Source: Bacteroidales bacterium
GTDB taxonomy: Bacteria; Bacteroidota; Bacteroidia; Bacteroidales; NBLH01
Length of the DNA: 64,000 bases
Assembly: GCA_050291445.1 (NCBI GenBank)
Contig: JBNKJW010000241.1
Location: 6,943 to 70,942 of the forward strand
Direction of reading: 5' to 3'
A program made the translations under genes and the position numbers. The notes beneath the pieces are model-generated. The model saw only the letters and a program-made list of their open reading frames with translations. It searched no databases and was not told the DNA's origin. Every line of letters begins with the position of its first letter. The first letter of the stretch is position 1. Shown here one piece after another: positions 1 to 19,298 of this stretch.

Positions 1-573
1 CAAAACCCCTATTTAAAAGGGCTCAATTTTTTTACTGAGTTGTTCAATGCCATCCAGAACAATAATAGTCTTTTTATTAAATATCAGGGTTTTAATCAGC
101 CCAAACCTGATGAATATACTTTTCACCCCTGGTACTTAAAACAATTTAATAATCGCTGGTTTTTGTTTGGATGGAATGATAAATACCAGGATTTAAGCAA
201 CATGCCCATTGACCGAATCCTATCAATTAATGAGTCCAAAACCACCTATTTACCAAACACGAAAATTGATTTCGAAGAATATTTCGAAGACCTTGTTGGA
301 GTTACAATAAAACCAGGTGCCCAATTAGAAAAAGTAATTATAAAAGTCAAAAATAAATTATGGCCTTATATTGTAAGCAAACCAATCCATGGCTCTCAAA
401 AAGTTAAATCTAGAAATGAATCAGAAACAATCATTGAATTAAACGTAATCATCAACTATGAATTTAAATCTCTTTTATTTTCTTACATGGATGGCATTGA
501 AATCATAGAGCCGGTGAGCTTAAGAGAAACATTTAAAGCGGTATCAGAAAACATATTTTTAAAGTATAAATAA
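1..573 (+). CDS. WYL-domain transcriptional regulator, C-terminal part (5' end upstream of window)
   Basis: The frame is open from nt 1, with no stop before the TTG at 40 used by the ORF track. Contains LFIKYQG...FHPWYLKQFNNRWFLFGW...MPIDRILSI (WYL-domain signature) followed by a WCX-like tail (GIEIIEPVSLRE). The HTH would lie outside the window. Confidence 0.75.
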   Translation, partial: QNPYLKGLNFFTELFNAIQNNNSLFIKYQGFNQPKPDEYTFHPWYLKQFNNRWFLFGWNDKYQDLSNMPIDRILSINESKTTYLPNTKIDFEEYFEDLVGVTIKPGAQLEKVIIKVKNKLWPYIVSKPIHGSQKVKSRNESETIIELNVIINYEFKSLLFSYMDGIEIIEPVSLRETFKAVSENIFLKYK

Positions 574-2446: not shown

Positions 2447-2468
2447 TAGTAAGAAAATGCGCTATTAG

Positions 2469-2524
2469 TCAGGCGTAAGCCAAGTCCCCCATTTTGGGGG
2501 CAGAAAAGCTTTGCTGGTGCCTGA
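2469..2524 (+). terminator. compound hairpin downstream of the 602-aa gene
   Basis: ccccc-atttt-ggggg (2486-2500) nested inside tcaggc (2469-2474) / gcctga (2519-2524). No clear U-tract. Confidence 0.35.
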
Positions 2525-2629
2525 TCACATTGTGTTCCTTAACATAAAACAAAATATGATATCAAAATGACCAACTATCTTCCATCCAGCTTTAAAAGTT
2601 TCTACCTTTAGCCCTCTAAACAAAAAAAT

Positions 2630-4216
2630 ATGATAACCGGAGAATTAAAGTCAAAAATAGATCAAATTTGGAACGTATTCTGGACAGGTGGGGTCACCAA
2701 CACCATTACAGTGGTGGAGCAGCTCACCTATCTCATTTTTATTAAAGATTTGGACAACATTGAAACCTTAAACGAGTTAAAAGCCAAGCGCGGTTTTAAA
2801 TACACCCCCATCTTTAACAAAGAGCAACAACATTTCCGTTGGAAAAACCTAAAAGAAATGGATGTGGCTCAACGTCACACCATTTTTTCCAATACAATAG
2901 ATGGTATCTTCCCCTTTATACGTGAATTAGGCAAAGATAAAAGCCTGTTTGCCACGCACATGCGAGGAGCCACCTTTGGAATTTCCAAACCGGCAACGCT
3001 TGACCAGGTAATGGAAAAACTCGAAGCCATTGACATGAGTGACCAGGACACCAAAGGCGACATTTACGAATACCTGCTCTCAAAATTGGAAGGAGGAGGC
3101 ACCGCAGGCCAGTTCCGCACCCCAAGGCACATTATAAAGATGATGGTTCGTTTAATGCAACCTACTTTGGATGATATCATTGCCGACCCGGCATGCGGTA
3201 CAGCTGGTTTTTTGGTAGCCTGCAAAGAATACATTGACAAGCACTACGATGTAACCGAAATTGACAAAAATTCAGAGCACATCAACAAGCACATGTTCAA
3301 TGGCATGGAGTTCGATGCTACCATGCTGCGCATTGCATCCATGAACCTGTATTTGCATGGAGTAGAAGAACCCAACATTATTGATGTAGATGCCGTAAGT
3401 AAAGACAACACCATTGCCGAAACTTACACCTTAATTTTAGCAAATCCGCCATTTAAAGGCACCATTGACAAAGAAAGCATTGCCACCGGCCTGAAAAATG
3501 TAACCGACACCTCAAAAACCGAACTTTTGTTTCTGGCCTTAATGCTTCGCCAGTTAAAATCAGGAGGACGCTGTGCAGTAATTGTGCCCGATGGCGTATT
3601 GTTTGGCAATGGCAAAGCCCACAAATCCATTCGCGAAGAAATCATTGCCAACAACAAGCTGGAGGCTGTTATTTCTATGCCCAGTGGCATATTTAAACCC
3701 TATGCCGGGGTAAGCACTGCCATTTTAGTTTTTACCAAAACAGGCACAGGCGGCACCGATAAGGTTTGGTTTTACGACATGAAAGCCGATGGCAAATCCC
3801 TCGACGACAAGCGTAACCTGCTGATAAGCGAAGAAATTTTCGACAGCTTTGTAATGACCACCGGCATTAGCCAGGAAGAAGCCGACAAATTGCACGACAA
3901 TTTCAACCTGCCAGACATTATCACTCGTTTTCGTTCCCTGAGCGCGGTCACTGAGCGAAGTCGAAGTGAAGCCGAAGGGAGCGGAGCCGACTCCCGGTCA
4001 TCGAGCGGAGTCGAGATGAACCGCAAACGCACCGACCAATCCTTCCTCGTACCTTTCAACGAAATCAAAGAAAACGAATGGGATTTATCCATCAATAGAT
4101 ACAAGGAAATTATATATGAAGAGATTAAATTTGACAGACCTGAGGAAATAATAGGACGTATTAAAAAGTTAGATGATGAAAGATTAAAATTAATTCAAAC
4201 TCTTAGCAATATTTGA
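2630..4216 (+). CDS. hsdM: type I restriction-modification system, DNA methyltransferase subunit M
   Basis: HsdM_N-like N-terminus, AdoMet motif DPACGTAGFL, catalytic NPPF (aa 272-275, nt 3443-3454), and C-terminal FLVPFNEIKENEWDLSINRYKE typical of HsdM. Confidence 0.95.
   Translation: MITGELKSKIDQIWNVFWTGGVTNTITVVEQLTYLIFIKDLDNIETLNELKAKRGFKYTPIFNKEQQHFRWKNLKEMDVAQRHTIFSNTIDGIFPFIRELGKDKSLFATHMRGATFGISKPATLDQVMEKLEAIDMSDQDTKGDIYEYLLSKLEGGGTAGQFRTPRHIIKMMVRLMQPTLDDIIADPACGTAGFLVACKEYIDKHYDVTEIDKNSEHINKHMFNGMEFDATMLRIASMNLYLHGVEEPNIIDVDAVSKDNTIAETYTLILANPPFKGTIDKESIATGLKNVTDTSKTELLFLALMLRQLKSGGRCAVIVPDGVLFGNGKAHKSIREEIIANNKLEAVISMPSGIFKPYAGVSTAILVFTKTGTGGTDKVWFYDMKADGKSLDDKRNLLISEEIFDSFVMTTGISQEEADKLHDNFNLPDIITRFRSLSAVTERSRSEAEGSGADSRSSSGVEMNRKRTDQSFLVPFNEIKENEWDLSINRYKEIIYEEIKFDRPEEIIGRIKKLDDERLKLIQTLSNI
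3938..4020. repeat. GC-rich in-frame mini-insertion inside hsdM with two related ~22-nt units
   Basis: cggtcactgagcgaagtcgaag (3944-3965) and cggtcatcgagcggagtcgaga (3994-4015) lie 50 nt apart. The local composition is clearly GC-richer than the flanks. Encodes SAVTERSRSEAEGSGADSRSSSGVEM in the variable linker before the conserved C-terminal HsdM helix. Confidence 0.5.
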
Positions 4217-4217
4217 T

Positions 4218-5414
4218 ATGAATAATCAAGTTAAAATAGATGATTGCTTTGATTTTGTCAGAAATGGTCTATCGATAAAACAGGAGAATGGCAAAAAAGG
4301 AATACCAATAACAAGGATTGAGACAATTTGGAATTCTAATATTGATATAAATAGGTTTGGGTATGCAGATATATTTGATATCGATAAATACTCTTCTAAT
4401 TTATTATCTGTTGGTGATTTATTAATGACTCATATTAATAGCCCAAAGCATCTTGGTAAATGTGCAATTTATGAAGGTATTCCAGAAAAGCTGATACATG
4501 GAATGAATTTACTATGCCTAAGACCATCAGAAAGTTTATTCCCCAAATATGCCTTTTACTTCTTCAATTCAAATAATTTTAAATCAAAAATTCCAAAAAT
4601 AAGCAATCAGTCTGTTAATCAAGCAAGCTTTTCAGCAGGTAAGCTTAAGGAACTCAAAATCCCCCTCCCCCCCCTCCAAACCCAAAAAAAGATTGCCCAA
4701 ATCCTCGACCAGGCCGATGCCCTGCGCAAAAAGACACAACAAATTATCGATGAATACGATAAACTCGCCCAATCCATCTTTTTGGATATGTTTGGGGACC
4801 CGGTTACTAATCCGAAAAGGTGGGAGAAAAGACTTTTAGGAGATATTACAAACCTTGTTACAGATGGTAAACATGGAGACTGCAATGATGAAGAAAATTC
4901 TGGTTATTATTTCATTAGTGCTAAAGATGTAAATAATTCAACAATTAACTATTCTAATGCAAGGCAAATAGTAAAAAAAGAGTTTGAAGAAGTTGATAGA
5001 AGAACAAATCTTCAACCAGGTGATTTAGTTATGGTAAATACTGGTGCAACTATTGGAAAGATGGCAATTGCAAAAAATATTCCTGAAACCAGAAAAACAA
5101 CTTTTCAAAAAAGTGTAGCTGTAATAAAATGTAAGGAAGAATTAATTAGAAGTATTTTTTTGAAATATGTATTTCTATTAAGAATAAACACATTTGCTAA
5201 TAGAGGTTCTGGATCAGCTATAAAAAACCTTTTATTATCAGAAATGAGAAGGTTTAAAATTATTGTTGCTCCTATTGAACTCCAAAACCAATTTGCAGAA
5301 AAAATAAAACTCATCGAACAACAAAAAGAACTGGCAAAACAAAGTTTAAAAGAGAGTGAGGATTTATTTAATGCACTGTTGCAAAAGGCGTTTAAGGGGG
5401 AGTTGGTAAAATAG
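4218..5414 (+). CDS. hsdS: type I restriction-modification system, specificity subunit S
   Basis: Starts 1 nt after the hsdM stop. Two variable TRDs are separated by the conserved spacer LPPLQTQKKIAQILDQADALRKKTQQIIDEYDKLAQSIFLDMFGDP, with a second conserved helix at the C-terminus (ELQNQFAEKIKLIEQQKELAKQS...LLQKAFKGEL). Confidence 0.9.
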   Translation: MNNQVKIDDCFDFVRNGLSIKQENGKKGIPITRIETIWNSNIDINRFGYADIFDIDKYSSNLLSVGDLLMTHINSPKHLGKCAIYEGIPEKLIHGMNLLCLRPSESLFPKYAFYFFNSNNFKSKIPKISNQSVNQASFSAGKLKELKIPLPPLQTQKKIAQILDQADALRKKTQQIIDEYDKLAQSIFLDMFGDPVTNPKRWEKRLLGDITNLVTDGKHGDCNDEENSGYYFISAKDVNNSTINYSNARQIVKKEFEEVDRRTNLQPGDLVMVNTGATIGKMAIAKNIPETRKTTFQKSVAVIKCKEELIRSIFLKYVFLLRINTFANRGSGSAIKNLLLSEMRRFKIIVAPIELQNQFAEKIKLIEQQKELAKQSLKESEDLFNALLQKAFKGELVK

Positions 5415-5429
5415 GAATTTTTAAATAGC

Positions 5430-5447
5430 CCTGGGCTTCAGCCCGGG
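5430..5447 (+). terminator. GC-rich hairpin between hsdS and the nested cassette (possible attenuator or REP-like hairpin)
   Basis: cctgggc-ttca-gcccggg gives a 7-bp stem with one G-U pair. No U-tract follows. Confidence 0.3.
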
Positions 5448-5505
5448 TAGAACAATACCATATCAAACATGGCTTTAGCCAAATTAATAAGATATAAAAA
5501 ACAAT

Positions 5506-6111
5506 ATGGAAACAAACTTTAACAATGAAATTTTCCCAACTGAAAAATTCAAAACTGAGAGTGAGTATATTGCCTCTTTAATTCAAACCATTGATTCTAT
5601 CGAAACTGATATACAAAAGAGAGCAAACACTCTGATAAAACTGGAAACTTTTTATGAAAAAAGAGAGGCTGATGAAAAACGCATGGCCAGGCTTGATTTA
5701 TTTAAGAAAGAATTTGGTGAATTAAATGTTACAGACAAGAAAGGAAAAACCAAAAAATACGAAGGCCTTTATATTTTTATTGATAAGGACAAACCAGTAT
5801 ATGTAGGTATTTCCAGAAATATTATTTCTCGTTTACGAAATCATGCGTGGGGCAAAACTTCTGTCACTTCCTCTTTAGCTTATTTAATGGCAAAACAAGA
5901 ACATGGGAACTTAAATAAGGATATTTACAAGGACAACATAAACGAAATAAGGGAGAAATATCTCGAAAAAGTTCGGGAATTTAAGTTGTATATCTATCCA
6001 TTTAAGGGACAGGAGAATACTGAAACTTCTGAGTATTACTCCCTCCAACTTTTGGAGGTATTACTTTCTGTTAGATTAAAAACTTGTTGGAACACATTTA
6101 AAACCCATTAA
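5506..6111 (+). CDS. GIY-YIG nuclease-domain protein with N-terminal coiled-coil region
   Basis: EGLYIFIDKDKPVYVGISRNIISRLRNH (aa 86-113) fits the GIY..YIG..R..H pattern. First gene of the coupled five-ORF run. Confidence 0.6.
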   Translation: METNFNNEIFPTEKFKTESEYIASLIQTIDSIETDIQKRANTLIKLETFYEKREADEKRMARLDLFKKEFGELNVTDKKGKTKKYEGLYIFIDKDKPVYVGISRNIISRLRNHAWGKTSVTSSLAYLMAKQEHGNLNKDIYKDNINEIREKYLEKVREFKLYIYPFKGQENTETSEYYSLQLLEVLLSVRLKTCWNTFKTH

Positions 6112-6113
6112 AT

Positions 6114-7265
6114 ATGTATTTTTTCTCCGAAACTGACCCTAATTATCGTATCAAAGGCTCCAGAGATCCATTGGGTTTTCAAAGCCTGTGGGCGGCTGCC
6201 GGTCATAAAGCAGTAGCTCATCTTTCAACGGTTTCGGCCAACCTGCGTGATTTTATGATTTTGGCTTATGCCACCTACTTTTATGGAAACAGAAATGAAA
6301 GTTATTTTCTGAATTTCTTTTTAAAATTTGAGCAGGTTTGCGCCTATGCCCGCAAAATATATCTGCCAGCAGAGGGTTTCAATGGAATCGATTTTGTAAA
6401 TAAACGGAAAGATGACCCCAGTTTTTTTATCTCTTTAAAGCCATCGGACACACTACTTAGCAATCAGCGCGCCTATGGCATTTATGGTAAATACATTCGT
6501 CCTACGCGCGACATGGGTTTTACCAGGGCCGAAGAATTTAATTCAGTAATGGAACAGTCTCTGTCTAAAACGAACAAATTGGCTGTTCTTCGCTTTGTAG
6601 AGCAATTGCTGAATAATGATAGAACAGAAATTGTCAAAGATGAACTTAAGCCAATGGCTGATTTATTAAGCCAATTAACCCAACCGGAGAAAGAATTATA
6701 TCGGAATTATCTTTTAAAAGTTCCTGACAGCAATCATCCTCAAAACAATTTATACTCTTTAGTAGAAAATAACCGAAGTATTGCTGAAAGCGAATTTAAC
6801 CTGCATGCTACTGTTCAGGTTCTACAAAATCAAGAGGGCATCTCTGCCGAGTTAAACAATGCTCTTGAAAATATCAGAAATACGGATAGAGTGCTTTTGC
6901 CTTTAAATAGGTGTTTTACACACTTATTAGGCCAGTCGCAATGGACATTGAAACAAATTGAAGATGACAGCTTTATTCAGAACTTACCAAGGAGTATTAA
7001 TTATGTGTTTACCGATTCCACCATGCAGGATCTTAATGGGATATTATCGCTTAAAAGCACCGAACTAATTGACAAAATAATAGAAAGAAATGACCATGTA
7101 AAACAAGGAGGACGTGCGTGGATTAAGAAAAAAGATGGCTTATACAAAGTAATTTATGGAGAAAGCGGCCAGATACAAGCCGATATCGATTTCGAAAACA
7201 GCTATGAATTCCCCTATTTTTTAAACACCTGGTTACATCTTTACAAACAAATAGAGTTAAATTAA
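6114..7265 (+). CDS. hypothetical 383-aa protein, no family recognised
   Basis: Starts 2 nt after the GIY-YIG stop, and its own stop overlaps the next ATG (TAATG). Conserved-looking N-terminal block IKGSRDPLGFQSLWAAAGHKAV. Has only two Cys residues and no CxxC-type zinc-ribbon motif. Confidence 0.6.
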   Translation: MYFFSETDPNYRIKGSRDPLGFQSLWAAAGHKAVAHLSTVSANLRDFMILAYATYFYGNRNESYFLNFFLKFEQVCAYARKIYLPAEGFNGIDFVNKRKDDPSFFISLKPSDTLLSNQRAYGIYGKYIRPTRDMGFTRAEEFNSVMEQSLSKTNKLAVLRFVEQLLNNDRTEIVKDELKPMADLLSQLTQPEKELYRNYLLKVPDSNHPQNNLYSLVENNRSIAESEFNLHATVQVLQNQEGISAELNNALENIRNTDRVLLPLNRCFTHLLGQSQWTLKQIEDDSFIQNLPRSINYVFTDSTMQDLNGILSLKSTELIDKIIERNDHVKQGGRAWIKKKDGLYKVIYGESGQIQADIDFENSYEFPYFLNTWLHLYKQIELN

Positions 7266-9223
7266 TGGAGCAGTACGTTATTATAGAAAAGCTAAAAGAA
7301 GCAATCAATGGGCGCAAGGTAATAGCTGCGGTATTTTACACCTTTAATTTTGATGCTCGCTTTTTCGAAAACTATTTGCTGCCAATCTTTTTACCACATG
7401 TAAATTTTTCCGATAATGAAATTCAAAACACCATACTTTGGCGCAAATATGTTAACGATTTGCCCTATGTGACTGTTTATTGCGATTTTCATGCAAAAAG
7501 TGACAATGCTCCGAATTTACCCTACCTGGTAAGAACAATAGACCTTCCAGCTGTAAATGGTCACAAAGCCTGTTTTCACCCAAAAGTTTCATTTATATTG
7601 CTTGAAGATGAGTGTTTATTGGTGCTAACTGGTTCTAATAACTTAACAGTTGGTGGTTGGTGCACAAATAGGGAAATAATAGCCATTAAAGAGCTTCAAA
7701 ATGGGAGATATTTTCCATACGAGCAAAAACACCAACTCTGGGATTTTTTGAAAACTAGCAACCAACTTAATGGAGCCGATTATTCAATTGCAGAAAAAAA
7801 CATTGATGCTTTCTATAGCAAAAGGCTGCACACTGAAAATGCCGATTTCTTTTTCTTTAATTCTGCGAAAAATTCATTTATCGATTATCTAAAAAACATT
7901 ATTATAAATGATGATGATACCCATTTTGAAAAAATAGAGGTTATTAGTCCGTATTTAACCACGGGAATTAATTTAGTTAACCAATTAACAGAAATTGTAA
8001 ATAAAGAAAACATCTATTTTAATGTTCCCTATAAAAACAGTGAAGAAGCTGAGATTACACAAGAAAACTATTATGCTTTTCAGCAGGCAGGGGTAAAATG
8101 GTCAAGATTAAAGCTTAAAGAATCAGAAAAAGGCTTTCGGTTTAATCACAGCAAAATATATCGCTTAAAAACGAGTAAAAAAGCGTACACAATTCTAGGT
8201 TCGGTAAATTTCACCGAAACTGCTTGGAAGGGAAGAAAAGATAACGGAAATCTTGAAACTGCAATTGTTTACGTTGAACCACTCGAAAACTGGCAACCTC
8301 TTTTAGAGCAATTCCACAATAATGACATCATCTTTGCAAAAGAGCAGACGGATGAAACCCATGTGGATAATCGAATGGATGCCCCTGATTTAGCGTTTAA
8401 ATTGAATTGGACTGAAAGAACGCTTGAATACAATAATTTGCCCGATTTCAAATTCTCAGGGCTCATTAAATTCATTGCAAAAAACATTGAGTTAAAAGAA
8501 GGATTAAACGCGCTAAAATTAGAGGATGCAATGCTTGAAGAGCTTGCTCAAAATCCTGCCATAAGGGTGTGGCAATACCATGTTAAACGAGAGCTGATTT
8601 ATTTTCCGGTACAGGAAGGTTTTGAGAGTAAACCAATCCCGCAAAAACTTAGATTAAAGGATGGGGAGCTTATTCAATTATGGGAAAATGTTTCGATAAA
8701 AGAAGTGAACAAATCTGAAATTGCTGGCCTTATTGAAAAGTTTATTATGGCTCGCATGAATGTCGATGGAGATTTGAAAAAGGAAACAGAGCTTTCAAAA
8801 TCAACACTTAATTTAATGGCATCGCATATTAGTGCCTTAATCCGATTGGAAGAACGCATTTTTACAGCACCAAAACTAAAACGGGATTACCTGATAGCCA
8901 AGGAGTTAATTGACTACTATCTGTTTGTCGTTAATATTGATACACTTTCAGGATATCAGGATTTGCTTGACGAAATGTATCAGGAAAAGACCATTTTACC
9001 TGGGGTCTATTGGTTCTTGTTAAATGTCCTTATTAATGATTTTTACAATTACGATAAAATAAAAAAGTTCTATAAAGAGGTAGAATGTCCTGTTAATGAT
9101 TTAAAAAACAGGATTGATGTTATAACAAAAAAAAATCAAACAATCACTGACAGACTTAAAAATGAGTTAAAAGAGGATGGCCTCAACATGGATTTATTAA
9201 AATGGATTAAAAAGGAGTTGTAA
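7265..9223 (+). CDS. phospholipase-D-family (dual HKD) nuclease with ~330-aa C-terminal extension
   Basis: HKD-1 is CFHPKVSFILL..LTGSNNLTVGGW (H105/K107, nt 7577). HKD-2 is FNHSKIYRLK..ILGSVNFTETAW (H294/K296, nt 8144). Residues 325-652 have no recognisable motif. Confidence 0.85.
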   Translation: MEQYVIIEKLKEAINGRKVIAAVFYTFNFDARFFENYLLPIFLPHVNFSDNEIQNTILWRKYVNDLPYVTVYCDFHAKSDNAPNLPYLVRTIDLPAVNGHKACFHPKVSFILLEDECLLVLTGSNNLTVGGWCTNREIIAIKELQNGRYFPYEQKHQLWDFLKTSNQLNGADYSIAEKNIDAFYSKRLHTENADFFFFNSAKNSFIDYLKNIIINDDDTHFEKIEVISPYLTTGINLVNQLTEIVNKENIYFNVPYKNSEEAEITQENYYAFQQAGVKWSRLKLKESEKGFRFNHSKIYRLKTSKKAYTILGSVNFTETAWKGRKDNGNLETAIVYVEPLENWQPLLEQFHNNDIIFAKEQTDETHVDNRMDAPDLAFKLNWTERTLEYNNLPDFKFSGLIKFIAKNIELKEGLNALKLEDAMLEELAQNPAIRVWQYHVKRELIYFPVQEGFESKPIPQKLRLKDGELIQLWENVSIKEVNKSEIAGLIEKFIMARMNVDGDLKKETELSKSTLNLMASHISALIRLEERIFTAPKLKRDYLIAKELIDYYLFVVNIDTLSGYQDLLDEMYQEKTILPGVYWFLLNVLINDFYNYDKIKKFYKEVECPVNDLKNRIDVITKKNQTITDRLKNELKEDGLNMDLLKWIKKEL

Positions 9224-9226
9224 ACA

Positions 9227-12200
9227 ATGCATTTATCAGAGGAAATAGCAAAAAAGATTATCAATCTTAATCCCTATCCTGAAAAGCAAATCATTGATTT
9301 TGACCTGGCTGAAAGGCAGTTTCAGGTTATTCTTCGGGGATTTAATTATTTGTTACAACCCGAAAATAAATTCTTGTACATTGGTGATGAAGTCGGATTA
9401 GGCAAAACTTATATTGCATTAGGAATAGCCTCACTTTTAAGATTGTATTCTGAAAGCCCTGAAACATATATTGATACGATACTCGTTCCAAAGGAGAATT
9501 TGCAATACAAATGGTTTAAAGAAATACGTAACTTTATCAGTCATAATTATTTAGAAAAAGACAACATTGTAAAATCCGTATTAAACCGTCCTGTAGGACA
9601 GCTAAAGGACAAGAGCATAAAAAAATCTCTGGCAGTCTTTGAGAAAGATCATGCCCAATATGTCATTTACCGCAATTCATCATTTAGCATTGCATCAGAT
9701 AACGAGGAAGAAGAGAACTCAATCTGGATTAGTAAGTTAACAGAAAAACTACCTGAAGAACAAAAACAACTTTTCCAACAAATTACAAAACGATTCAGAA
9801 ATAACAATAGCTTAATAAAAAGGGCATATGCCTATTTATTTAACCACACGCTGCCTGAAACAGATCTGCTTATTGTTGATGAAGCCCATAATTTCAGGCA
9901 TGGAACAGGCAAAGATGTTTCAATCAGGAATCAAACAGTTTCACGTATGTTTGGAGCTGTTCATGATGATGAGGAACTTTTCGAGTATTTTCCTCAGCTT
10001 ATAGAATTATCAAAACCAAAAGTAAAAAAGCTGCTCTTACTGTCAGCTACTCCCATAAATAATTCATTACTTGAAATAAAAAACCAATTGGATTGTTTTA
10101 TTCCTAATCATCGGTTTTCTCATTTGCCGAATGATAAAGAGGGTGAAGAATGCATAAACAAAGCTTTAAATGAGTTTATGATTCGCGGAGTAATGAATGT
10201 TAAGGTAAACAATGCTCAATATAGCAGAAACGGGTATCGGCATGAGCATCGCAACGGAAATGTCGAAATGAAAGAGTTTTCAGGGCAGCAGATTCTGAAG
10301 GACAATGCCACCTCTTTAGTGTTAAGTTTGATGCAATATAAAATAATTAAAGAACTTAAATTAAAAAGTGGGAATCAGTTTGAAATGGGAATGCTTGCTG
10401 GGTTTGAAAGCTTTCAAAAAGCAAGCTCCACCTACGAAGATGAGACCCTTTCAAGCCGAAAAGAAAAGGAAGCCAAAGATGAAGCGGTGTTAAAGCAAAT
10501 CATTGAATCATACAGTGAGACTTTTAAAAACTATCCTCCCCATCCTAAACAAGAAAGTTTGGTTGAAGAGCTTTTTCAATTAATGATCCAACGAGAAAAA
10601 TCACTGGTTTTTGTACGTCGGATTGCATCTGTCAGGGAACTTGAAAGAAAGTTGTTTAAAAAGTACAGTGATTTCCTCATTGAAAAAATCAAGAAGGTTA
10701 CAGTAGGGACAGATATTGAATCAATAAAGGTTTTACTAAGAAACTACGAGGATGAATTCGTCCGCGAAGGAATAGAAACAACATTAGATGTTCTTGAAGA
10801 AAGGATAAAATACGATTTAAAACGAGATGAAAATTACCAGCCTGATAATGGAGAGTCAATTGAGCAGATAATTTCAAAAGATTTACGTGAAATTTTTTAC
10901 TCTCTGGTTGATAACACTGAGATTAATAACTACAGGGAAGAAATAAAAAGTCATGTTGGACGTAAAAACATCAAACAGGAGTTAAAAGACATTGCAAAAG
11001 ACCTGATAATCAGAAAATGGAACAACATTCTTGTTCTTGATGAAGCTGAAGATGAGGATGATGAGAACACATTGCAGGAAAATTATCATAATGAGGAGAG
11101 GGCTCCCTATTTCTTTCAGCGATTTTTTTACAACGAAGGAAAAAAATTCAAAAACAGGAGCTATAAAAAGGACTGGTATGAACTAAACCTGGTTTTACTT
11201 AATGATAAATACAATCTGTTTGATTTAAAAAGGAAGAAAATATTATGTCAGGAATATGAGTTTTTTGATGAGCTTGTTGATGTTAAAAAATTCAAGTCAT
11301 TAACTGACAAAACAATTGAGGCAATAAAAAGTGATTTACTTACAGAATCAGAAATCAATAGCGAATTTAGAAGCAACACTTTCTTAACCGAGTTATTATT
11401 AAATTTATGCGAAGTCGAATTTTCAACATGGGTTGATTACCATAAAAAACTTATCTCAAACAGCTATTATTCGCGTTTTCTTAAAGAAATTGACTTCTTG
11501 ACTGAAATATTAAAAAGTATTTTCAGGCAGGGAAGCGGTTTATTACCGGCATTTATTGCTGAAGCAAAAACATCAAAAAAAGAAGATCCAAGAAAGGCAT
11601 TTATCAGTGAAATGAAAGACCTGTTGACTGGTGAGTTTGATTTTGTACTTGACGAAATAAAACAGGTTTTGAGAGATTATGAAAAACTCGTTGAAAGAAA
11701 TTTCGATGACAAAGATAAAATCAGATACAACCTGATTCAGCAATTACCAGTTGCCGGAATTAGCGGGCATCACAAAAAAGATGTCAGAAAATCTGCCATA
11801 CAGTTTCGCATGCCGGGTTATCCTTATGTTCTTATTACTACCGACATATTAAAAGAAGGAGAAGACCTGCATGCTTATTGCAAAAACATCTATCATTATG
11901 GTATAGCCTGGAATCCTTCCGATATGGAACAAAGAACTGGTAGAATTGATCGGGTAGACTCAATGGCCTACAGATTGATTAAAGAAGTTGAAAAGAAAGG
12001 TTTAAGTGAAATTCCGTTTCATAACAAACTCCAGGTCTTTTATCCTTATTTGGCTGATACTCTCGAAGTAAATCAGATGATAAAGTTGTTTGACGGAATG
12101 GACAAATTCATTGAAATATTTTATAATGATCTATCAGCAACAATTGAGAAAAATTCAAAAGCCAATGTGGATGATATTGTTTTGGATATTCCTGAGCAGC

Positions 12201-12739
12201 GTAAAGGTCTTTTGAAATCAAAATATGATTATGACTCATTCTCCCAGTTCTATAATGGTGAAGAACTTTGCTTAAAAAGCGCAATTGGCACAACCTTCGA
12301 TGAACTTTCTTTAAAACTGAATCAAATACTTTCAGAATTATTAAAATTTGAATACAAAGTAAAACCAGAGTTTGATTTTCATGATTTGGCTATTTCCGGT
12401 ATTATGTCTGTTAACGACAGAAATGGGCCATTTAAACTTTATTTTAATCAGAAAGAACAACCAGGTCAATTCGAGTTTAAAATGAAATCGTTGTTAGGCA
12501 AAGTACAGTTACTTGGCAAAAAGTCCAATAAACAAAAACTTGAAGAAGAAATACAATTAAGAAGTGTTGGTGAAAAAATTGAATTAGAAATAAAAGAATC
12601 AAACTCATTCGCTTATCTTACTACCTCTGCTGGTTATTCAATAGCAATAAATGAAGTAGTGGATAAACTTATTAAACTGATCAAAATAACTGATGATATT
12701 GAATATAAGATAATTGGTACTGACGAAATTCCGGAATAA
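9227..12739 (+). CDS. SNF2-like SF2 ATPase/helicase, C-lobe split by a large charged insertion
   Basis: Motif I DEVGLGKT (K60, nt 9395-9409), motif II VDEAH (218-221, nt 9878), motif III LLSATP (270-275), motif IV-like KSLVFVRRI (458-466), motif V LITTDILKEGEDL (869-881), motif VI QRTGRIDR (902-909, nt 11930). A ~350-aa E/K/D-rich insertion lies between aa ~481 and ~833. Confidence 0.85.
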   Translation: MHLSEEIAKKIINLNPYPEKQIIDFDLAERQFQVILRGFNYLLQPENKFLYIGDEVGLGKTYIALGIASLLRLYSESPETYIDTILVPKENLQYKWFKEIRNFISHNYLEKDNIVKSVLNRPVGQLKDKSIKKSLAVFEKDHAQYVIYRNSSFSIASDNEEEENSIWISKLTEKLPEEQKQLFQQITKRFRNNNSLIKRAYAYLFNHTLPETDLLIVDEAHNFRHGTGKDVSIRNQTVSRMFGAVHDDEELFEYFPQLIELSKPKVKKLLLLSATPINNSLLEIKNQLDCFIPNHRFSHLPNDKEGEECINKALNEFMIRGVMNVKVNNAQYSRNGYRHEHRNGNVEMKEFSGQQILKDNATSLVLSLMQYKIIKELKLKSGNQFEMGMLAGFESFQKASSTYEDETLSSRKEKEAKDEAVLKQIIESYSETFKNYPPHPKQESLVEELFQLMIQREKSLVFVRRIASVRELERKLFKKYSDFLIEKIKKVTVGTDIESIKVLLRNYEDEFVREGIETTLDVLEERIKYDLKRDENYQPDNGESIEQIISKDLREIFYSLVDNTEINNYREEIKSHVGRKNIKQELKDIAKDLIIRKWNNILVLDEAEDEDDENTLQENYHNEERAPYFFQRFFYNEGKKFKNRSYKKDWYELNLVLLNDKYNLFDLKRKKILCQEYEFFDELVDVKKFKSLTDKTIEAIKSDLLTESEINSEFRSNTFLTELLLNLCEVEFSTWVDYHKKLISNSYYSRFLKEIDFLTEILKSIFRQGSGLLPAFIAEAKTSKKEDPRKAFISEMKDLLTGEFDFVLDEIKQVLRDYEKLVERNFDDKDKIRYNLIQQLPVAGISGHHKKDVRKSAIQFRMPGYPYVLITTDILKEGEDLHAYCKNIYHYGIAWNPSDMEQRTGRIDRVDSMAYRLIKEVEKKGLSEIPFHNKLQVFYPYLADTLEVNQMIKLFDGMDKFIEIFYNDLSATIEKNSKANVDDIVLDIPEQRKGLLKSKYDYDSFSQFYNGEELCLKSAIGTTFDELSLKLNQILSELLKFEYKVKPEFDFHDLAISGIMSVNDRNGPFKLYFNQKEQPGQFEFKMKSLLGKVQLLGKKSNKQKLEEEIQLRSVGEKIELEIKESNSFAYLTTSAGYSIAINEVVDKLIKLIKITDDIEYKIIGTDEIPE

Positions 12740-15700
12740 TGGCAACAAACTTTCAATTCTTACAATCCGAATGGCCCGAGTTTTTCCAACGCTCAGCCAA
12801 AGCCGAAAAGTTAATGATTACCGATCCGCGCACTTCATTAACCTATGCCCGCATGGCTTTAGAACTGGCTGTTAATTGGATGTACGAAAACGACCCCGAT
12901 TTGGAATTGCCATACGATACCTCTCTGAATTCCCTCATGAAACAACATGAGTTTAAAAATCAATTTGCTCACCGACTTTACAACGACATTGACATCATTC
13001 GCAAAGTAGGCAACCTGGCCATTCATAACAAGCCGGTTTCTGCTGTCGATTCAGAAAAAATAACCACCAACCTTTTCTATTTTGCAAAATGGTTTGCCAA
13101 ATCCTACACCGAAACCGATGCAATTGAAGCAGGGCTGTTTAATTACGACATCATCCCCAAAGAAGGCGAGGCAGCTTTAAGTAAAAAACAACTCGCAAAC
13201 CTTCAGCAGCAGTTCGATAAAGATTTAAAAAGCTCGCAGGAAGAACTAAAAAAGACCCTTGCACGCAACAAAGAGCTACTGGAAGAAAACGAACTACTCA
13301 AAAAGCAATTACAAGCGCAAGCAGAAAAATTTGAGGCGCAGAAAGAAATTGCCAACCACGAGGACGAAATAAAACACCCTCGTAACGAATACGAAACAAG
13401 GAAATACATCATTGATATTGCCTTGCGTGCTGCAGGTTGGGATTTGCAGGGAGTTAACGACAAGGAGTTCAAAGTGGAGCACATGCCCCTTTCAACCAAC
13501 AAATCCGGAACCGGCTATGTAGATTACGTCCTTTGGAACGATGATGGAAAACCCCTTGCTTTGGTTGAAGCCAAAAAAACTCTGGAATCAGTAAAAAAAG
13601 GAGAAAACCAGGCTCAGTTGTATGCCGAAAGTTTAGAAAAAATGTTTGGTGTGCGCCCGGTAATGTATTACACCAATGGTTTTGAAACGTATATGTGGGA
13701 CGACCAGTTTTACAAAAAATCCCGTCCCGTACATGGTTTCTATACCAAAAGCGAGTTGCAAACCATTTTTTACAGACGCCAGCACCGAAAAGACATTCGT
13801 AAACACGAAATAGATACCCTGATAGCAGGGCGTTCGTACCAAATGCGTTCCATCAAAAGTATTGCAGAGCATTTTTCAGGAAACGACAAAGCAACAGGCA
13901 AACTAATTGGAACCAATCACGGAGCCTTATTGGTTTTAGCAACAGGAACCGGAAAAACAAGAGTCTCCATTGCTTTTAGTAAATTGATGTTCGAGGCTAA
14001 CTGGGCAAAACGCATCTTGTTTTTGGCCGACAGGGTAAGTCTGGTCAACCAGGCAAAAAGGGAATACACAAAACATTTGCCTGACCATTCCAACGTAAGT
14101 TTGTTGGAAGAAAAAGAAAATACCACCACCCGTTTGGTATTCTCCACCTATCAAACCATGATGGGCTTAATTGACGAACTAAAAGACGGCGAAGAGCACT
14201 TTTACGGCGTAGGCCATTTCGATCTAATTATTTTCGACGAAGCACACCGCTCCATTTATCGTAAATACCAGGCCATTTTCGAATATTTCGATGCCTTGTT
14301 CCTGGGCTTAACTGCCACACCAAAAGACAGCATCGATAAAAATACCTACGAAATTTTTGGCTTGGCCGATAAAAAGCCAACCGATGCCTATCCGTTTTGG
14401 GAAGCAGTAGAGAAAAAGCACCTGGTAGGTTATCGTAGTATCGAAGTGCCTACCAAGTTCCAGACCCAGGGCATCAAATACAAAGACCTTTCACCTGAAG
14501 AAAAAGAAGAATTTGAAAACGAAATACTCGATGGTGAGGAAGCAACAGGCAATGAAAGGGTTGATAAAAATGCCCTGAACAAGTGGCTGTTTAATAAAGA
14601 CACAACCATAAAAACGCTGAATTACATCCTGAAAAATGGAATCAAAAAACGGGGTGGTGAAGAAATAGGGAAAACCATCATCTTTGCACGTAACCGCAAA
14701 CATGCCGAATTCCTGAAAGACATGCTGCTTGACATGGATAAAGAGCAATACAGCAATGATTATGTAAAAGTAATCACCTACAAAGAAGAAAAAGCCGAAG
14801 AATTCATTCGTCGTTTTTGTGATGATGAAGTAGAGCGTCTGCCTCAAATTACTATTTCAGTTGACATGCTCGATACAGGAATTGATGCGCCAAGCGTAGT
14901 CAACCTGGTGTTTTACAAACCAGTAAAGTCATTTTCAAAATTCTGGCAAATGATAGGCCGTGGTTCCCGCTTGCGGCCAGATTTATTTGGCCCGGGAAAG
15001 GACAAAGATAAGTTCTTGATTTTTGATTTATGTGGCAATTTCGAATTCTTCGAAGAAAACCCCGAAGGCATTGAAACAGGCATTCAAAAAAGTCTTACCG
15101 AAATTATCTTTAACCTGAAACTACAACTGGCACAATACCTGAAAGATGGAAAGCTTCAGAAAAACGAGGAATTTCAGCAATACCGCACCAAACTACTGGA
15201 TGAATTATATTCCGACATTGCAAACCTTGACAAAGACAGGTTTGACGTAAAAATGAAATTAAAAACCGTGCTCGAATACGGCAGCGATAATCGTGAACTG
15301 TGGAATCACCTGCAAAAGAAGGATGTTCAAACCATACAGGATGAATTAGCCATACTGGTAAAACCAGCAAAAGACGATACCGACTTAGCCCGTTTTTACG
15401 ACAAGTTGTTATATACACTTATCTTAAAACGCATCGAAACACCGGTTTCCGAAGTATATTTTGATAAATATGTTGGCCAGATTTCAAGAGTAGCCAATCT
15501 CTCACAAAAGCTGTTAACGAAAACCTCCATTCCAAAAGTCAGGGAAAAAGAAGACCTGATAAAAATGCCCTTAGACGAAAACTTTTGGAAATTGGATGGC
15601 ATTACCCATTTGGAAAACATTAGGTCAGGCTTGCGCGACCTCATAAAATACATCGACAGAGAAGACCAGAAATATGCTGTAACAGATTTTGAAGACACCT

Positions 15701-16236
15701 TATATGAAGAAAATGTCAAAATAAAAGATTATGTAGGTAATGAGCCTCCGGCAAGTTACGAAAGCCCGTTTAAAAACAACATTCACCGATTAGAAGAAAT
15801 CATTCGAAAAAATCAGAACAACATCACCATAGGTCGCATTCGAAGCGGCCAGCAAATAACCAAAGAAGAATTACAATCATTGGAGTTGATGTTATTCAAT
15901 GAAAAACTAAAAAAGGAAGAAATCGAAAAAGAATTAGGAAAGCAGTTAGACCTTACTAAATTCATCATTGAACTAACAGGCCTAAGCGAAGAACACGTTA
16001 ACCTGGCCTTTGCCAATTTCATCAACACCTATCAATTAAATTCAGTACAAATTGAATTTCTGGAAACCATCAAACAATTCCTGACCAAAAACGGCAAAAT
16101 AAACCCCATGAAACTATACGACTCACCATTTAAAAAATACCATAACCTTGGCATCGAAGGCGTATTCAACAACGAACAAACTGATAAGATTTTTGAGTTG
16201 GTAGAGAGGTTGAATGGGGTTACTAAAGGTGCATAA
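12739..16236 (+). CDS. hsdR: type I restriction enzyme, endonuclease/translocase subunit R
   Basis: The ATG overlaps the helicase stop (TAATG). PD-(D/E)xK core GYVDYVLW..PLALVEAKK (D262, E277, K279), helicase motifs ATGTGKT, FDEAHR, TATP and QMIGRGSR, and an EcoEI-R-type C-terminal segment (NSVQIEFLETIKQFLTKNG). N-terminal helical module plus coiled coil (aa 1-215). Confidence 0.9.
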   Translation: MATNFQFLQSEWPEFFQRSAKAEKLMITDPRTSLTYARMALELAVNWMYENDPDLELPYDTSLNSLMKQHEFKNQFAHRLYNDIDIIRKVGNLAIHNKPVSAVDSEKITTNLFYFAKWFAKSYTETDAIEAGLFNYDIIPKEGEAALSKKQLANLQQQFDKDLKSSQEELKKTLARNKELLEENELLKKQLQAQAEKFEAQKEIANHEDEIKHPRNEYETRKYIIDIALRAAGWDLQGVNDKEFKVEHMPLSTNKSGTGYVDYVLWNDDGKPLALVEAKKTLESVKKGENQAQLYAESLEKMFGVRPVMYYTNGFETYMWDDQFYKKSRPVHGFYTKSELQTIFYRRQHRKDIRKHEIDTLIAGRSYQMRSIKSIAEHFSGNDKATGKLIGTNHGALLVLATGTGKTRVSIAFSKLMFEANWAKRILFLADRVSLVNQAKREYTKHLPDHSNVSLLEEKENTTTRLVFSTYQTMMGLIDELKDGEEHFYGVGHFDLIIFDEAHRSIYRKYQAIFEYFDALFLGLTATPKDSIDKNTYEIFGLADKKPTDAYPFWEAVEKKHLVGYRSIEVPTKFQTQGIKYKDLSPEEKEEFENEILDGEEATGNERVDKNALNKWLFNKDTTIKTLNYILKNGIKKRGGEEIGKTIIFARNRKHAEFLKDMLLDMDKEQYSNDYVKVITYKEEKAEEFIRRFCDDEVERLPQITISVDMLDTGIDAPSVVNLVFYKPVKSFSKFWQMIGRGSRLRPDLFGPGKDKDKFLIFDLCGNFEFFEENPEGIETGIQKSLTEIIFNLKLQLAQYLKDGKLQKNEEFQQYRTKLLDELYSDIANLDKDRFDVKMKLKTVLEYGSDNRELWNHLQKKDVQTIQDELAILVKPAKDDTDLARFYDKLLYTLILKRIETPVSEVYFDKYVGQISRVANLSQKLLTKTSIPKVREKEDLIKMPLDENFWKLDGITHLENIRSGLRDLIKYIDREDQKYAVTDFEDTLYEENVKIKDYVGNEPPASYESPFKNNIHRLEEIIRKNQNNITIGRIRSGQQITKEELQSLELMLFNEKLKKEEIEKELGKQLDLTKFIIELTGLSEEHVNLAFANFINTYQLNSVQIEFLETIKQFLTKNGKINPMKLYDSPFKKYHNLGIEGVFNNEQTDKIFELVERLNGVTKGA

Positions 16237-19105: not shown

Positions 19106-19209
19106 CATTTTTAATATGGAGCACATGCGAAACATTTTGCCGAAAAATAATGCACCCCCCTGAAAACAAAAAAGTTGAAAAAATGTTTCCATTTCTTCAA
19201 CCATTTCTG

Positions 19210-19298
19210 CGGAGAGGGGGGGATTCGAACCCCCGGTGCAAGTTTCCCCACACGCCGGTTTAGCAAACCGGTGGATTAAGCCACTCTCCCACCTCTCC
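19210..19298 (-). tRNA. tRNA-Ser (anticodon GCU)
   Basis: The reverse complement reads GGAGAGG-TG-...-CCGGT TTGCTAA ACCGG-long variable arm-GGGGG TTCGAAT CCCCC-CCTCTCC-G. It has a 7-bp acceptor stem, a GCT anticodon in a 7-nt loop, a class II long variable arm and a GTTCGAATC T-loop. Length 89 nt, no encoded CCA. Confidence 0.9.

What the first reader, a model, noticed from the sequence alone, without database searches (positions are those of the whole stretch)
6114..7265. 383-aa protein with no recognisable domain, translationally coupled to the PLD nuclease
Seen in sequence: the ORF is intact and mostly helical-looking. It has a conserved-looking N-terminal block YRIKGSRDPLGFQSLWAAAGHKAVAHLSTVSANLRDFMIL, only two Cys residues with no CxxC-type zinc-ribbon motif, and no Walker motifs. 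Its TAA overlaps the ATG of the PLD gene. Inference: in multi-gene defence systems, the unknown small partner that precedes the nuclease and helicase is often the sensor or specificity subunit. This is the least explained component and the best place for novelty.
Basis: inference. Interest (0 to 1): 0.55.

Follow-up and report, generated by a model that had tools for sequence, protein, structure and literature searches.

The report
Unknown partner of PLD–SNF2 defence cassette
The 383-aa protein is real and is the always-present first gene of a three-gene cassette (unknown protein, PLD nuclease, SNF2 helicase) already listed as the untested phage-defence candidate PDC-M27, here nested inside a type I restriction-modification operon; what the protein does is still unknown.

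Summary
ORF 6114-7265 is intact, 56% helical, has two Cys, no CxxC and no Walker A motif. Its TAA shares one base with the ATG of the PLD gene. It matches nothing in Pfam, NCBIfam or the PDB, and a confident AlphaFold model (pLDDT 88.5) has no Foldseek match.

It is not an orphan, though. It is a divergent, mostly Bacteroidota member of PADLOC's PDC-M27A family. The direct hit is weak (5e-6). hhalign to canonical plasmid members gives 94-96%, and all 112 superfamily members tested hit the model. In every related locus with enough DNA the order is A, PLD, SNF2, with tight junctions. The three proteins' pairwise-identity matrices correlate at r of about 0.96, and no fourth gene is conserved.

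PDC-M27 was proposed because such cassettes sit embedded in other defence systems, and I found no experimental test of it. Here the cassette lies between hsdS and hsdR.

The closest characterised analogue is Azaca (ZacA, PLD ZacB, helicase ZacC), where all three proteins are needed to cleave T4 DNA. Protein A shows no detectable DUF6361/ZacA similarity.

The most likely role is an obligatory third subunit that licenses or targets the PLD–SNF2 nuclease. That role is inferred, not shown. Interest is moderate.

The parts
6114..7265 (+). Gene A: 383-aa protein, a divergent PDC-M27A family member (the finding)
   Evidence: ORF. PADLOC PDC-M27A hit at 5e-6. hhalign to canonical PDC-M27A proteins gives 94.5% and 96.3%. 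830 cluster representatives at E<=1e-3. AF2 model pLDDT 88.5, pTM 0.86.
6144..6263 (+). N-terminal signature block (Y11-L50) holding the GSRDPLGFQ, W26, G30, STVS and D46 motifs
   Evidence: Invariant in 50 homologues. At least 96% conserved in 234 superfamily sequences. D18 and W26 are invariant in 138 sequences that include canonical PDC-M27A.
6330..6503 (+). Second conserved stretch (E73-Q74, R80, N90-G91, Q118, Y121-G122, G125-K-Y127, R129-P130)
   Evidence: E73, G91 and Q118 are invariant across the superfamily.
6846..7163 (+). C-terminal region (about residues 245-350) with helix-helix-beta-hairpin topology, possibly winged-helix-like; holds conserved R325, N326 and W336
   Evidence: Secondary structure. 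W336 is invariant and N326 at least 96% conserved. A Foldseek search with the domain model gave no significant hit (best E 0.57), though many listed targets carry winged helices. This is a weak hint only.
7263..7267 (+). TAATG stop/start overlap between gene A and the PLD gene
   Evidence: In 44 related loci the spacing is -13 to +8 nt, with an overlap in 29.
7265..9223 (+). Gene B: 652-aa PLD-fold nuclease candidate with two HxK...GSxN motifs (H105, H295) and an unassigned C-terminal half
   Evidence: Pfam PLDc_2 3.7e-10 and RE_NgoFVII 8.4e-6. PADLOC PDC-M27B 1.4e-23 and ZacB 5.3e-7. Motifs.
9227..12739 (+). Gene C: 1170-aa SNF2-type SF2 helicase/translocase (GLGKT, DEAH)
   Evidence: Pfam ResIII, SNF2-rel_dom and Helicase_C. 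PADLOC PDC-M27C 1.3e-69 and ZacC 2.6e-24.
5506..6111 (+). 201-aa GIY-YIG protein 2 nt upstream of gene A; also embedded, but not a conserved partner
   Evidence: Pfam GIY-YIG 8.1e-6. No homologue beside the cassette in 26 related loci.
2630..5414 (+). hsdM (2630-4216) and hsdS (4218-5414) of the host type I R-M operon
   Evidence: Translations. Pfam annotation of the identical genes (HsdM_N, N6_Mtase; Methylase_S).
12739..16236 (+). hsdR (1165 aa; DUF4145 + HSDR_N + ResIII + Helicase_C + EcoEI_R_C); its start overlaps the SNF2 gene's stop by 1 nt, so genes A-B-C and the GIY-YIG gene lie between hsdS and hsdR
   Evidence: (REase_I 1.2e-177).

Best explanation
Gene A encodes the first subunit of a self-contained three-gene cassette: A, a PLD-fold nuclease and an SNF2 translocase. 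The cassette belongs to PADLOC's candidate phage-defence system PDC-M27, in a divergent and mostly Bacteroidota clade. Here it is nested, together with an unrelated GIY-YIG gene, between hsdS and hsdR of a type I R-M operon.

Shown: family membership, strict co-occurrence and gene order, tight translational coupling, co-divergence of the three proteins, a defence-island or mobile context, and the absence of any known domain or fold in A.

Inferred: A is made in step with the PLD protein and assembles with the PLD and SNF2 proteins into one complex. In that complex the SNF2 motor supplies ATP-driven DNA translocation and the PLD domain cleaves. A is the obligatory third, probably non-catalytic, subunit that licenses or targets cleavage. 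It may act through a winged-helix-like C-terminal region and a highly constrained N-terminal pocket or interface. This follows the Azaca precedent, where ZacA, ZacB and ZacC are all needed to cut T4 DNA. No cognate methyltransferase is conserved with the cassette, so self/non-self discrimination probably rests on a feature of the invader's DNA (modification or structure) rather than on host methylation.
For: - Family: the direct PADLOC hit to PDC-M27A is 5e-6. The window-family profile finds 830 cluster representatives, including a 410-460-aa group that hits PDC-M27A at 1e-11 to 1e-24.
- Canonical PDC-M27 cassettes on Vibrio and Rhodoferax plasmids score 1e-172 to 0 against the PADLOC models. 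Their A proteins align full-length with the window family by hhalign at 94.5% and 96.3%. All 112 superfamily members tested hit PDC-M27A.
- Partners: B hits PDC-M27B at 1.4e-23 and C hits PDC-M27C at 1.3e-69.
- Linkage: of 51 genome loci, every one with enough downstream DNA carries A, PLD and SNF2 in the same order. The A-stop to PLD-start spacing is -13 to +8 nt in 44 loci. Pairwise-identity matrices of the three proteins correlate at r 0.955-0.968 over 28 loci. No fourth gene is conserved.
- Context: flanking genes include type I HsdR, PDC-M01, PDC-M62, PtuA, AriA, GmrSD, AIPR, integrases and transposases. The cassette directly abuts hsdR in the window, L015, L032 and L033.
- Literature: PDCs were defined by embedding in BREX, DISARM or type I R-M systems (bioRxiv 10.1101/2024.01.29.577857). 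For Azaca, all of ZacABC are needed for T4 DNA cleavage and the ZacC Walker A motif is essential (bioRxiv 10.1101/2025.07.10.664194).
- Catalytic motifs are intact in B and C.
Against: - No experiment on PDC-M27 was found in the searchable literature, so even the defence function is a prediction.
- A's direct hit to the PADLOC model is weak and covers only 57 residues.
- Homology of A to ZacA (DUF6361) was not detected. One of 112 members hit ZacA at E 0.0017, which is within the noise range. The Azaca analogy therefore rests on architecture and on the homology of B and C only.
- The winged-helix reading has no significant structural match.
- The many invariant polar residues in the N-terminal 130 aa (D8, R17, D18, E73, Q74, R80, Q118, Y121) fit an active or ligand site at least as well as a passive adaptor.
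- No interaction prediction could be run.
Confidence: 0.55

Rival explanations
1. A is an enzyme or ligand/modified-base sensor with a new fold. The invariant N-terminal residues would form a catalytic or binding pocket (for a nucleotide signal, a modified base or a DNA end), and occupancy would switch the PLD–SNF2 machine on.
For: D18, W26, E73, G91, Q118 and W336 are invariant. D8, S16, R17, Q74, R80 and Y121 are at least 90% conserved in 138 sequences whose identity to the window protein falls to 16%. The model is confident yet has no PDB or BFVD fold match.
Against: No known catalytic motif is present, there is no metal- or nucleotide-binding signature, and the fold is mostly helical. In the analogous Azaca system, mutating conserved ZacA residues changed neither complex formation nor cleavage in vitro. 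The most conserved loop (residues 11-20) is modelled with low confidence (pLDDT 56).
Confidence: 0.2
2. A is a restraining (antitoxin-like) subunit that keeps the PLD–SNF2 nuclease inactive on host DNA until infection releases it.
For: A lies upstream of and is translationally coupled to the nuclease gene, which would ensure A is made first or in matching amounts. No methyltransferase is conserved with the cassette, so some other autoimmunity control is needed. Hachiman sets a precedent for a nuclease restrained by its partner (cited in 10.1101/2024.10.26.620412).
Against: In Azaca the third protein is required for cleavage rather than inhibitory. Remnant loci keep only the 5' end of A and have lost PLD and SNF2 together (L048-L050), which gives no sign of addiction. 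No locus shows PLD–SNF2 without A.
Confidence: 0.15
3. The cassette is a functional accessory of the type I R-M enzyme that surrounds it, for example a second nuclease and motor recruited by HsdMS, rather than an independent system.
For: It sits between hsdS and hsdR with 1-3-nt junctions. It directly abuts hsdR in 4 of 27 loci with long flanks, and type I parts lie nearby in about 8.
Against: Most related loci, and the canonical plasmid cassettes, have no type I genes next to them. The Hsd trio here is complete on its own. Embedding of unrelated systems in type I operons is a described general pattern.
Confidence: 0.06
4. The cassette has a non-defence role, such as DNA repair/recombination or mobile-element maintenance.
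For: SNF2 and PLD proteins also act in repair. Integrases and transposases are among the neighbours.
Against: The distribution is patchy, with decayed copies (L046) and remnants. Neighbours are mainly defence genes. Copies occur on plasmids and on a virome scaffold. There is no housekeeping family match.
Confidence: 0.04

Closest known systems
PDC-M27 (PADLOC-DB v2 phage defence candidate; genes A, B, C)
   Same: Same three-gene order: unknown A, PLD B, SNF2 C. All three window proteins have these models as their best PADLOC hits. A aligns full-length with canonical PDC-M27A by hhalign. The cassette is embedded in a type I R-M operon, which is the criterion by which PDCs were proposed.
   Different: A is shorter (383 aa against 445-470), and its direct HMM hit is marginal (5e-6 over 57 residues), so automatic annotation may miss it. 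The clade is mostly Bacteroidota, whereas the canonical examples seen here are on proteobacterial plasmids. C is about 300 aa longer than in those plasmid examples. PDC-M27 itself has no published functional test that I could find.
Azaca (ZacA-ZacB-ZacC; Millman et al. 2022, biochemistry in bioRxiv 10.1101/2025.07.10.664194)
   Same: Three genes in the same order and of similar sizes: an unknown protein, a PLD nuclease and an SF2 helicase. B and C give significant though secondary hits to ZacB (5.3e-7) and ZacC (2.6e-24). This is the only system of this architecture with biochemistry.
   Different: ZacA carries DUF6361. No A-family protein matched DUF6361 or, convincingly, PADLOC ZacA. B and C fit the PDC-M27 models far better than the Zac models.
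DISARM class 1 (DrmA, DrmB, DrmC-PLD, DrmD-SNF2, DrmMI)
   Same: It combines a PLD protein with an SNF2 helicase. C hits DrmD models across a 43-residue helicase motif.
   Different: There is no DrmA, no DrmB (DUF1998) and no dedicated methyltransferase. The DrmD and DrmC hits are far below family cut-offs (66.6 bits against a 610-bit cut-off).
Zorya ZorC/ZorD
   Same: A helical protein of unknown fold works with an SNF2-family helicase-nuclease. Canonical PDC-M27C proteins weakly hit ZorD models.
   Different: No ZorA/ZorB motor is present. The nuclease here is a separate PLD protein, not an Mrr-like domain fused to the helicase. A did not hit ZorC.

Membership tests
PDC-M27 (PADLOC candidate system) | Protein matching the PDC-M27A model | tested here: met
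   The direct hit is weak (5e-6, residues 95-151). Membership is secured by hhalign to canonical PDC-M27A proteins (94.5% at 7e-8 and 96.3% at 1.7e-9, both full-length) and by intermediate relatives that hit the model at 1e-11 to 1e-24. All 112 superfamily members tested hit the model.
PDC-M27 (PADLOC candidate system) | Adjacent PDC-M27B (PLD) and PDC-M27C (SNF2) genes on the same strand | tested here: met
   B scores 1.4e-23 and C 1.3e-69. Junctions are -1 nt and +3 nt. The same order holds in about 40 related loci.
PDC-M27 (PADLOC candidate system) | Demonstrated anti-phage activity | not testable with these tools
   No paper in the library mentions PDC-M27. It is not among the PDCs validated in PMC12881386.
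Azaca | ZacA with a DUF6361 domain | tested here: not met
   No DUF6361 hit among the listed matches for the window protein and 49 homologues, for 10 intermediate relatives or for canonical PDC-M27A proteins at E up to 10. PADLOC ZacA was hit by 1 of 112 members at E 0.0017, the same range as chance hits to Csm3 and Cas11b. A profile-profile or fold comparison with ZacA could not be run because no ZacA sequence or AFDB library was available.
Azaca | ZacB PLD nuclease and ZacC SF2 helicase | tested here: inconclusive
   ZacB 5.3e-7 and ZacC 2.6e-24 are significant but much weaker than the PDC-M27B and PDC-M27C hits. This indicates homology at superfamily level, not membership.
DISARM | DrmA helicase plus DrmB (DUF1998), with a DrmMI or DrmMII methylase | tested here: not met
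   No such genes lie in the operon or are conserved in related loci. The DrmD equivalog scores 66.6 bits against a cut-off of 610.
Type I restriction-modification (the host operon, not gene A) | HsdM, HsdS and HsdR all present and intact | tested here: met
   hsdM 2630-4216, hsdS 4218-5414 and hsdR 12739-16236. Gene A matches none of these families.

The most novel reading that the evidence does not exclude
Protein A has a previously undescribed fold. Its invariant N-terminal constellation (D8, R17-D18, W26, E73-Q74, R80, Q118, Y121) would form a true ligand-binding or catalytic site, for example one that reads a hypermodified phage base or a DNA end. That would make A the infection sensor that gates a PLD–SNF2 motor nuclease, and possibly the unrecognised structural counterpart of ZacA, uniting PDC-M27 and Azaca into one superfamily.
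Probability: 0.2. Interest if true: 0.7.

Novelty: new member of a known kind. Interest (0 to 1): 0.38.

Why it matters
PLD–helicase defence cassettes such as Azaca, PDC-M27 and part of DISARM are widespread, but the role of their third, domain-less subunit is unknown even where biochemistry exists.

This locus adds a well-sampled Bacteroidota clade. It has more than 150 sequence clusters and 51 genome loci, and it belongs to a superfamily of 830 representatives. It comes with a confident structural model and a short list of invariant residues to mutate. It is also a clear natural example of a candidate system nested inside a type I R-M operon.

If the invariant N-terminal site proved to be a sensor, it would explain how these methylase-less nucleases tell phage DNA from host DNA. 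As it stands, this is a catalogued but untested candidate system, so the finding gives testable detail rather than a new class.

Tried and rejected
- **Curated libraries.** Pfam and NCBIfam scans of the protein, 49 homologues, 10 intermediate relatives and canonical PDC-M27A proteins gave only scattered sub-threshold hits (EXOC6_Sec15_N, DUF956, DUF7822 and others), which I treated as noise.
- **PDB by sequence profile.** Only designed helical repeats appeared, at E>0.4.
- **Foldseek, full model.** Nothing below E=1 against the PDB or BFVD.
- **Foldseek, C-terminal domain model.** Nothing below E=0.5. The list is rich in winged-helix proteins but has no statistical support.
- **Getting a ZacA sequence for a profile-profile test.** The Azaca paper has no held supplements. 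tblastn of the SNF2 protein and of a canonical PDC-M27B against plasmids returned only PDC-M27, DrmD-type and generic helicases, with no Azaca locus.
- **P-loop idea.** I rejected it for 'AYGIYGKY'. The residue after GK is Tyr, the Lys is Arg in canonical members, and there is no Walker B motif or Rossmann-like fold.
- **GIY-YIG gene as a fourth component.** Rejected, because it is not conserved beside the cassette.
- **Promoter and terminator scans.** Counts in the operon were no different from shuffled sequence.
- **Literature.** Searches for PDC-M27 or for a validated PLD+SNF2+unknown system found nothing beyond Azaca.

Full report
**Observation**

The ORF at 6114-7265 (+) is intact and encodes 383 aa from an ATG that matches the N-termini of its homologues. 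Its TAA (7263-7265) shares one base with the ATG of the next gene, 7265-9223. The protein has two Cys (76, 267), no CxxC and no Walker A motif. DSSP on an AlphaFold2 model gives 56% helix.

G15-SRDPLGFQ-23, W26, G30, S38-TVS-41 and D46 are invariant in 50 homologues at 34-79% identity. A second cluster is equally conserved: E73-Q74, R80, N90-G91, Q118, Y121-G122, G125-K-Y127 and R129-P130.

**What the databases say**

- Pfam and NCBIfam give nothing for the protein, for 49 homologues, or for more distant relatives.
- A profile search of PDB sequences gives nothing.
- The AF2 model is confident (pLDDT 88.5, pTM 0.86). Foldseek finds no match below E=1 in the PDB or in BFVD.

The one library that recognises the protein is PADLOC. 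It gives PDC-M27A at 5e-6 over residues 95-151, while the neighbours hit PDC-M27B (1.4e-23) and PDC-M27C (1.3e-69).

**Securing the family assignment**

A full HMMER scan of 1.84 billion representatives with the family profile found 830 proteins at E<=1e-3 and 275 at E<=1e-30. These include a second group of 410-460-aa proteins. Ten of that group hit PDC-M27A at 1e-11 to 1e-24 and hit no Pfam family.

One of them (P0235, 445 aa) is followed by a 677-aa protein with an overlapping start and then a 1182-aa SNF2 helicase.

tblastn of the window's SNF2 protein against plasmids led to cassettes in Vibrio nigripulchritudo and Rhodoferax antarcticus. Their three proteins match the PDC-M27 models at 1e-172 to 0. 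Their A proteins, annotated 'hypothetical protein', align end to end with the window family by hhalign at 94.5% (7e-8) and 96.3% (1.7e-9). They share the DPLG...W...G...S..S, Q..G..G.Y..P and R...PW motifs.

All 112 superfamily members scanned hit PDC-M27A. Across 138 sequences, D18, W26, E73, G91, Q118 and W336 are invariant. The window protein is therefore a divergent, shorter member of PDC-M27A.

**The cassette**

A scan of one genome per species returned 51 loci. Almost all are Bacteroidota (Flavobacteriia, Sphingobacteriia, Chitinophagia, Cytophagia, Saprospiria, Bacteroidales), with a few Desulfobacterota and Campylobacterota MAGs.

- Every locus with enough downstream DNA carries A, PLD and SNF2 in that order on one strand.
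- The A-stop to PLD-start spacing is -13 to +8 nt in 44 loci and overlaps in 29.
- Pairwise-identity matrices of the three proteins over 28 loci correlate at r=0.955-0.968, and A and PLD have equal mean identity (0.37). The three genes are inherited and diverge as one unit.
- No fourth gene is conserved. The GIY-YIG gene 2 nt upstream of A in the window has no counterpart elsewhere.
- The only recurrent direct neighbour is hsdR: downstream in the window and L033, upstream in L015 and L032.

The two nearest genes on each side in 26 loci include type I HsdR, PDC-M01, PDC-M62, PtuA, AriA, GmrSD, AIPR, DpnII, integrases and transposases. Decayed copies (L046) and 5' remnants of A (L048-L050) also exist. 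A complete cassette lies on an unverified virome scaffold beside Sir2-like and AAA ATPase genes. This patchy, mobile, defence-island pattern is what is expected of a defence system.

**Local context**

In the window the operon reads as follows:

| Gene | Coordinates |
|---|---|
| hsdM | 2630-4216 |
| hsdS | 4218-5414 |
| GIY-YIG | 5506-6111 |
| A | 6114-7265 |
| PLD | 7265-9223 |
| SNF2 | 9227-12739 |
| hsdR | 12739-16236 |

Junctions run from -1 to +3 nt, except for a 91-nt gap after hsdS. The Hsd trio is complete. This is the 'embedded' arrangement from which Payne et al. derived the 145 PDC systems (bioRxiv 10.1101/2024.01.29.577857). Those systems are candidates. I found no paper naming PDC-M27, and it is not among the PDCs validated since.

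**How it probably works**

B has two HxK...GSxN motifs (H105, H295). C has SNF2 motifs I (GLGKT) and II (DEAH). Both should therefore be active.

The only characterised system with this architecture is Azaca. In vitro, ZacA (DUF6361), ZacB (PLD) and ZacC (SF2 helicase) are all required to cleave T4 DNA. The ZacC Walker A motif and the nuclease site are essential. Mutations of conserved ZacA residues changed neither complex formation nor cleavage (bioRxiv 10.1101/2025.07.10.664194). B and C show secondary but significant similarity to ZacB (5.3e-7) and ZacC (2.6e-24).

By inference, A, B and C form one complex. The SNF2 motor translocates on DNA, the PLD protein cuts, and A is an obligatory third subunit that licenses or directs cutting. 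No methyltransferase travels with the cassette, so discrimination probably depends on a property of the invading DNA.

Structure hints for A are limited:
- Residues 11-20 form a strongly conserved loop that is modelled with low confidence (pLDDT 56).
- The core is helical.
- A C-terminal region (about residues 245-350) has helix-helix-beta-hairpin topology and holds conserved R325, N326 and W336.
- A separate model of residues 240-383 (pLDDT 86.5) gave no significant Foldseek hit, although many of the weak hits carry winged helices. I treat DNA binding by A as a hypothesis only.

**Rivals**

- The density of invariant polar residues in the first 130 aa fits a ligand-binding or catalytic site as well as an interface, so 'sensor or enzyme of a new fold' is a live alternative (0.2).
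- A restraining, antitoxin-like role is possible (0.15).
- Functional dependence on the surrounding type I enzyme is unlikely, because most cassettes have no hsd neighbours (0.06).
- A non-defence role is unlikely (0.04).

**Comparison and membership**

The cassette meets the sequence and synteny criteria for PDC-M27. It fails the one testable defining feature of Azaca, a DUF6361 ZacA. A single ZacA hit at E=0.0017 among 112 proteins is no better than the chance hits to Csm3 or Cas11b in the same scan. It lacks DrmA, DrmB and a methylase, so it is not DISARM. It works like Azaca, but it is not shown to be Azaca.

**Verdict**

It is not new as a kind, because it belongs to a catalogued candidate system. 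What this analysis adds:
- the link between a large Bacteroidota clade and PDC-M27;
- evidence that the three genes form a strict co-evolving unit;
- a confident model with no known fold;
- a defined set of invariant residues.

Novelty: new member of a known (candidate) kind. Interest: 0.38. The most novel reading still open is that A is a new-fold sensor that gates the nuclease, perhaps the hidden counterpart of ZacA (probability about 0.2, interest 0.7 if true).

Noticed in passing
window 638-2446 (+), with 40-573 (+) upstream: The 602-aa ORF matches PADLOC single-gene candidate PDC-S71 almost full-length (1.5e-214) and has no Pfam or NCBIfam hit. It is preceded by a WYL/WCX-domain ORF. Together with the type I R-M operon and the embedded genes, the first 16 kb of the window look like a defence island.
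   Followed up: partly
window 5506-6111 (+): A 201-aa GIY-YIG protein (Pfam 8.1e-6; weak PADLOC UzuA hit at 1.2e-4) is also embedded between hsdS and hsdR, 2 nt upstream of gene A. It is not found next to the cassette in 26 related loci, so it may be a separate embedded defence candidate.
   Followed up: partly
window 12739-16236 (+): hsdR carries an N-terminal DUF4145 domain and an EcoEI_R_C tail. Its ATG overlaps the SNF2 gene's stop by one base, so the embedded genes are probably co-transcribed with the R-M genes.
   Followed up: no
window 2001-16000: hsdM and hsdR have higher GC (0.42-0.47 per kb) than hsdS and the embedded genes (0.31-0.38). This is compatible with later insertion of the embedded genes but does not prove it.
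   Followed up: no
window 19209-19298 (-): The only tRNA in the window (tRNA-Ser GCT) lies about 3 kb downstream of hsdR. It could be an integration landmark for the island.
   Followed up: no
L046 10001-16166; L048, L049, L050 near 10000; L045: L046 (Flavobacteriales UBA4466) has a decayed cassette with all three genes broken into fragments. L048-L050 keep only the first 53-75 codons of A, and in L049 and L050 this remnant sits directly after very large ORFs (2723 and 1622 aa), with PLD and SNF2 gone. This indicates frequent loss.
   Followed up: partly
L059 (MT835507.1, 'UNVERIFIED: Bacteriophage sp.', human faecal virome) 8998-15939: A complete A-PLD-SNF2 cassette (A is 404 aa; hhalign 99.5%, 3e-23) is flanked by a Sir2-like gene and AAA ATPase genes. 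No phage structural genes were seen in the 18 kb examined, so the scaffold may be bacterial or a defence-carrying mobile element.
   Followed up: partly
L033 3538-19501; L015 and L032 upstream regions: L033 repeats the window's layout: hsdM, other genes, then A-PLD-SNF2, then hsdR. In L015 and L032 the cassette is appended directly after hsdR. The cassette therefore recurs next to type I restriction subunit genes.
   Followed up: partly
alignment A4 (112 PDC-M27A superfamily proteins): One member hits PADLOC ZacA at E=0.0017. The tool does not say which member or which region. The hit is within the noise range but is worth a proper profile-profile test.
   Followed up: no
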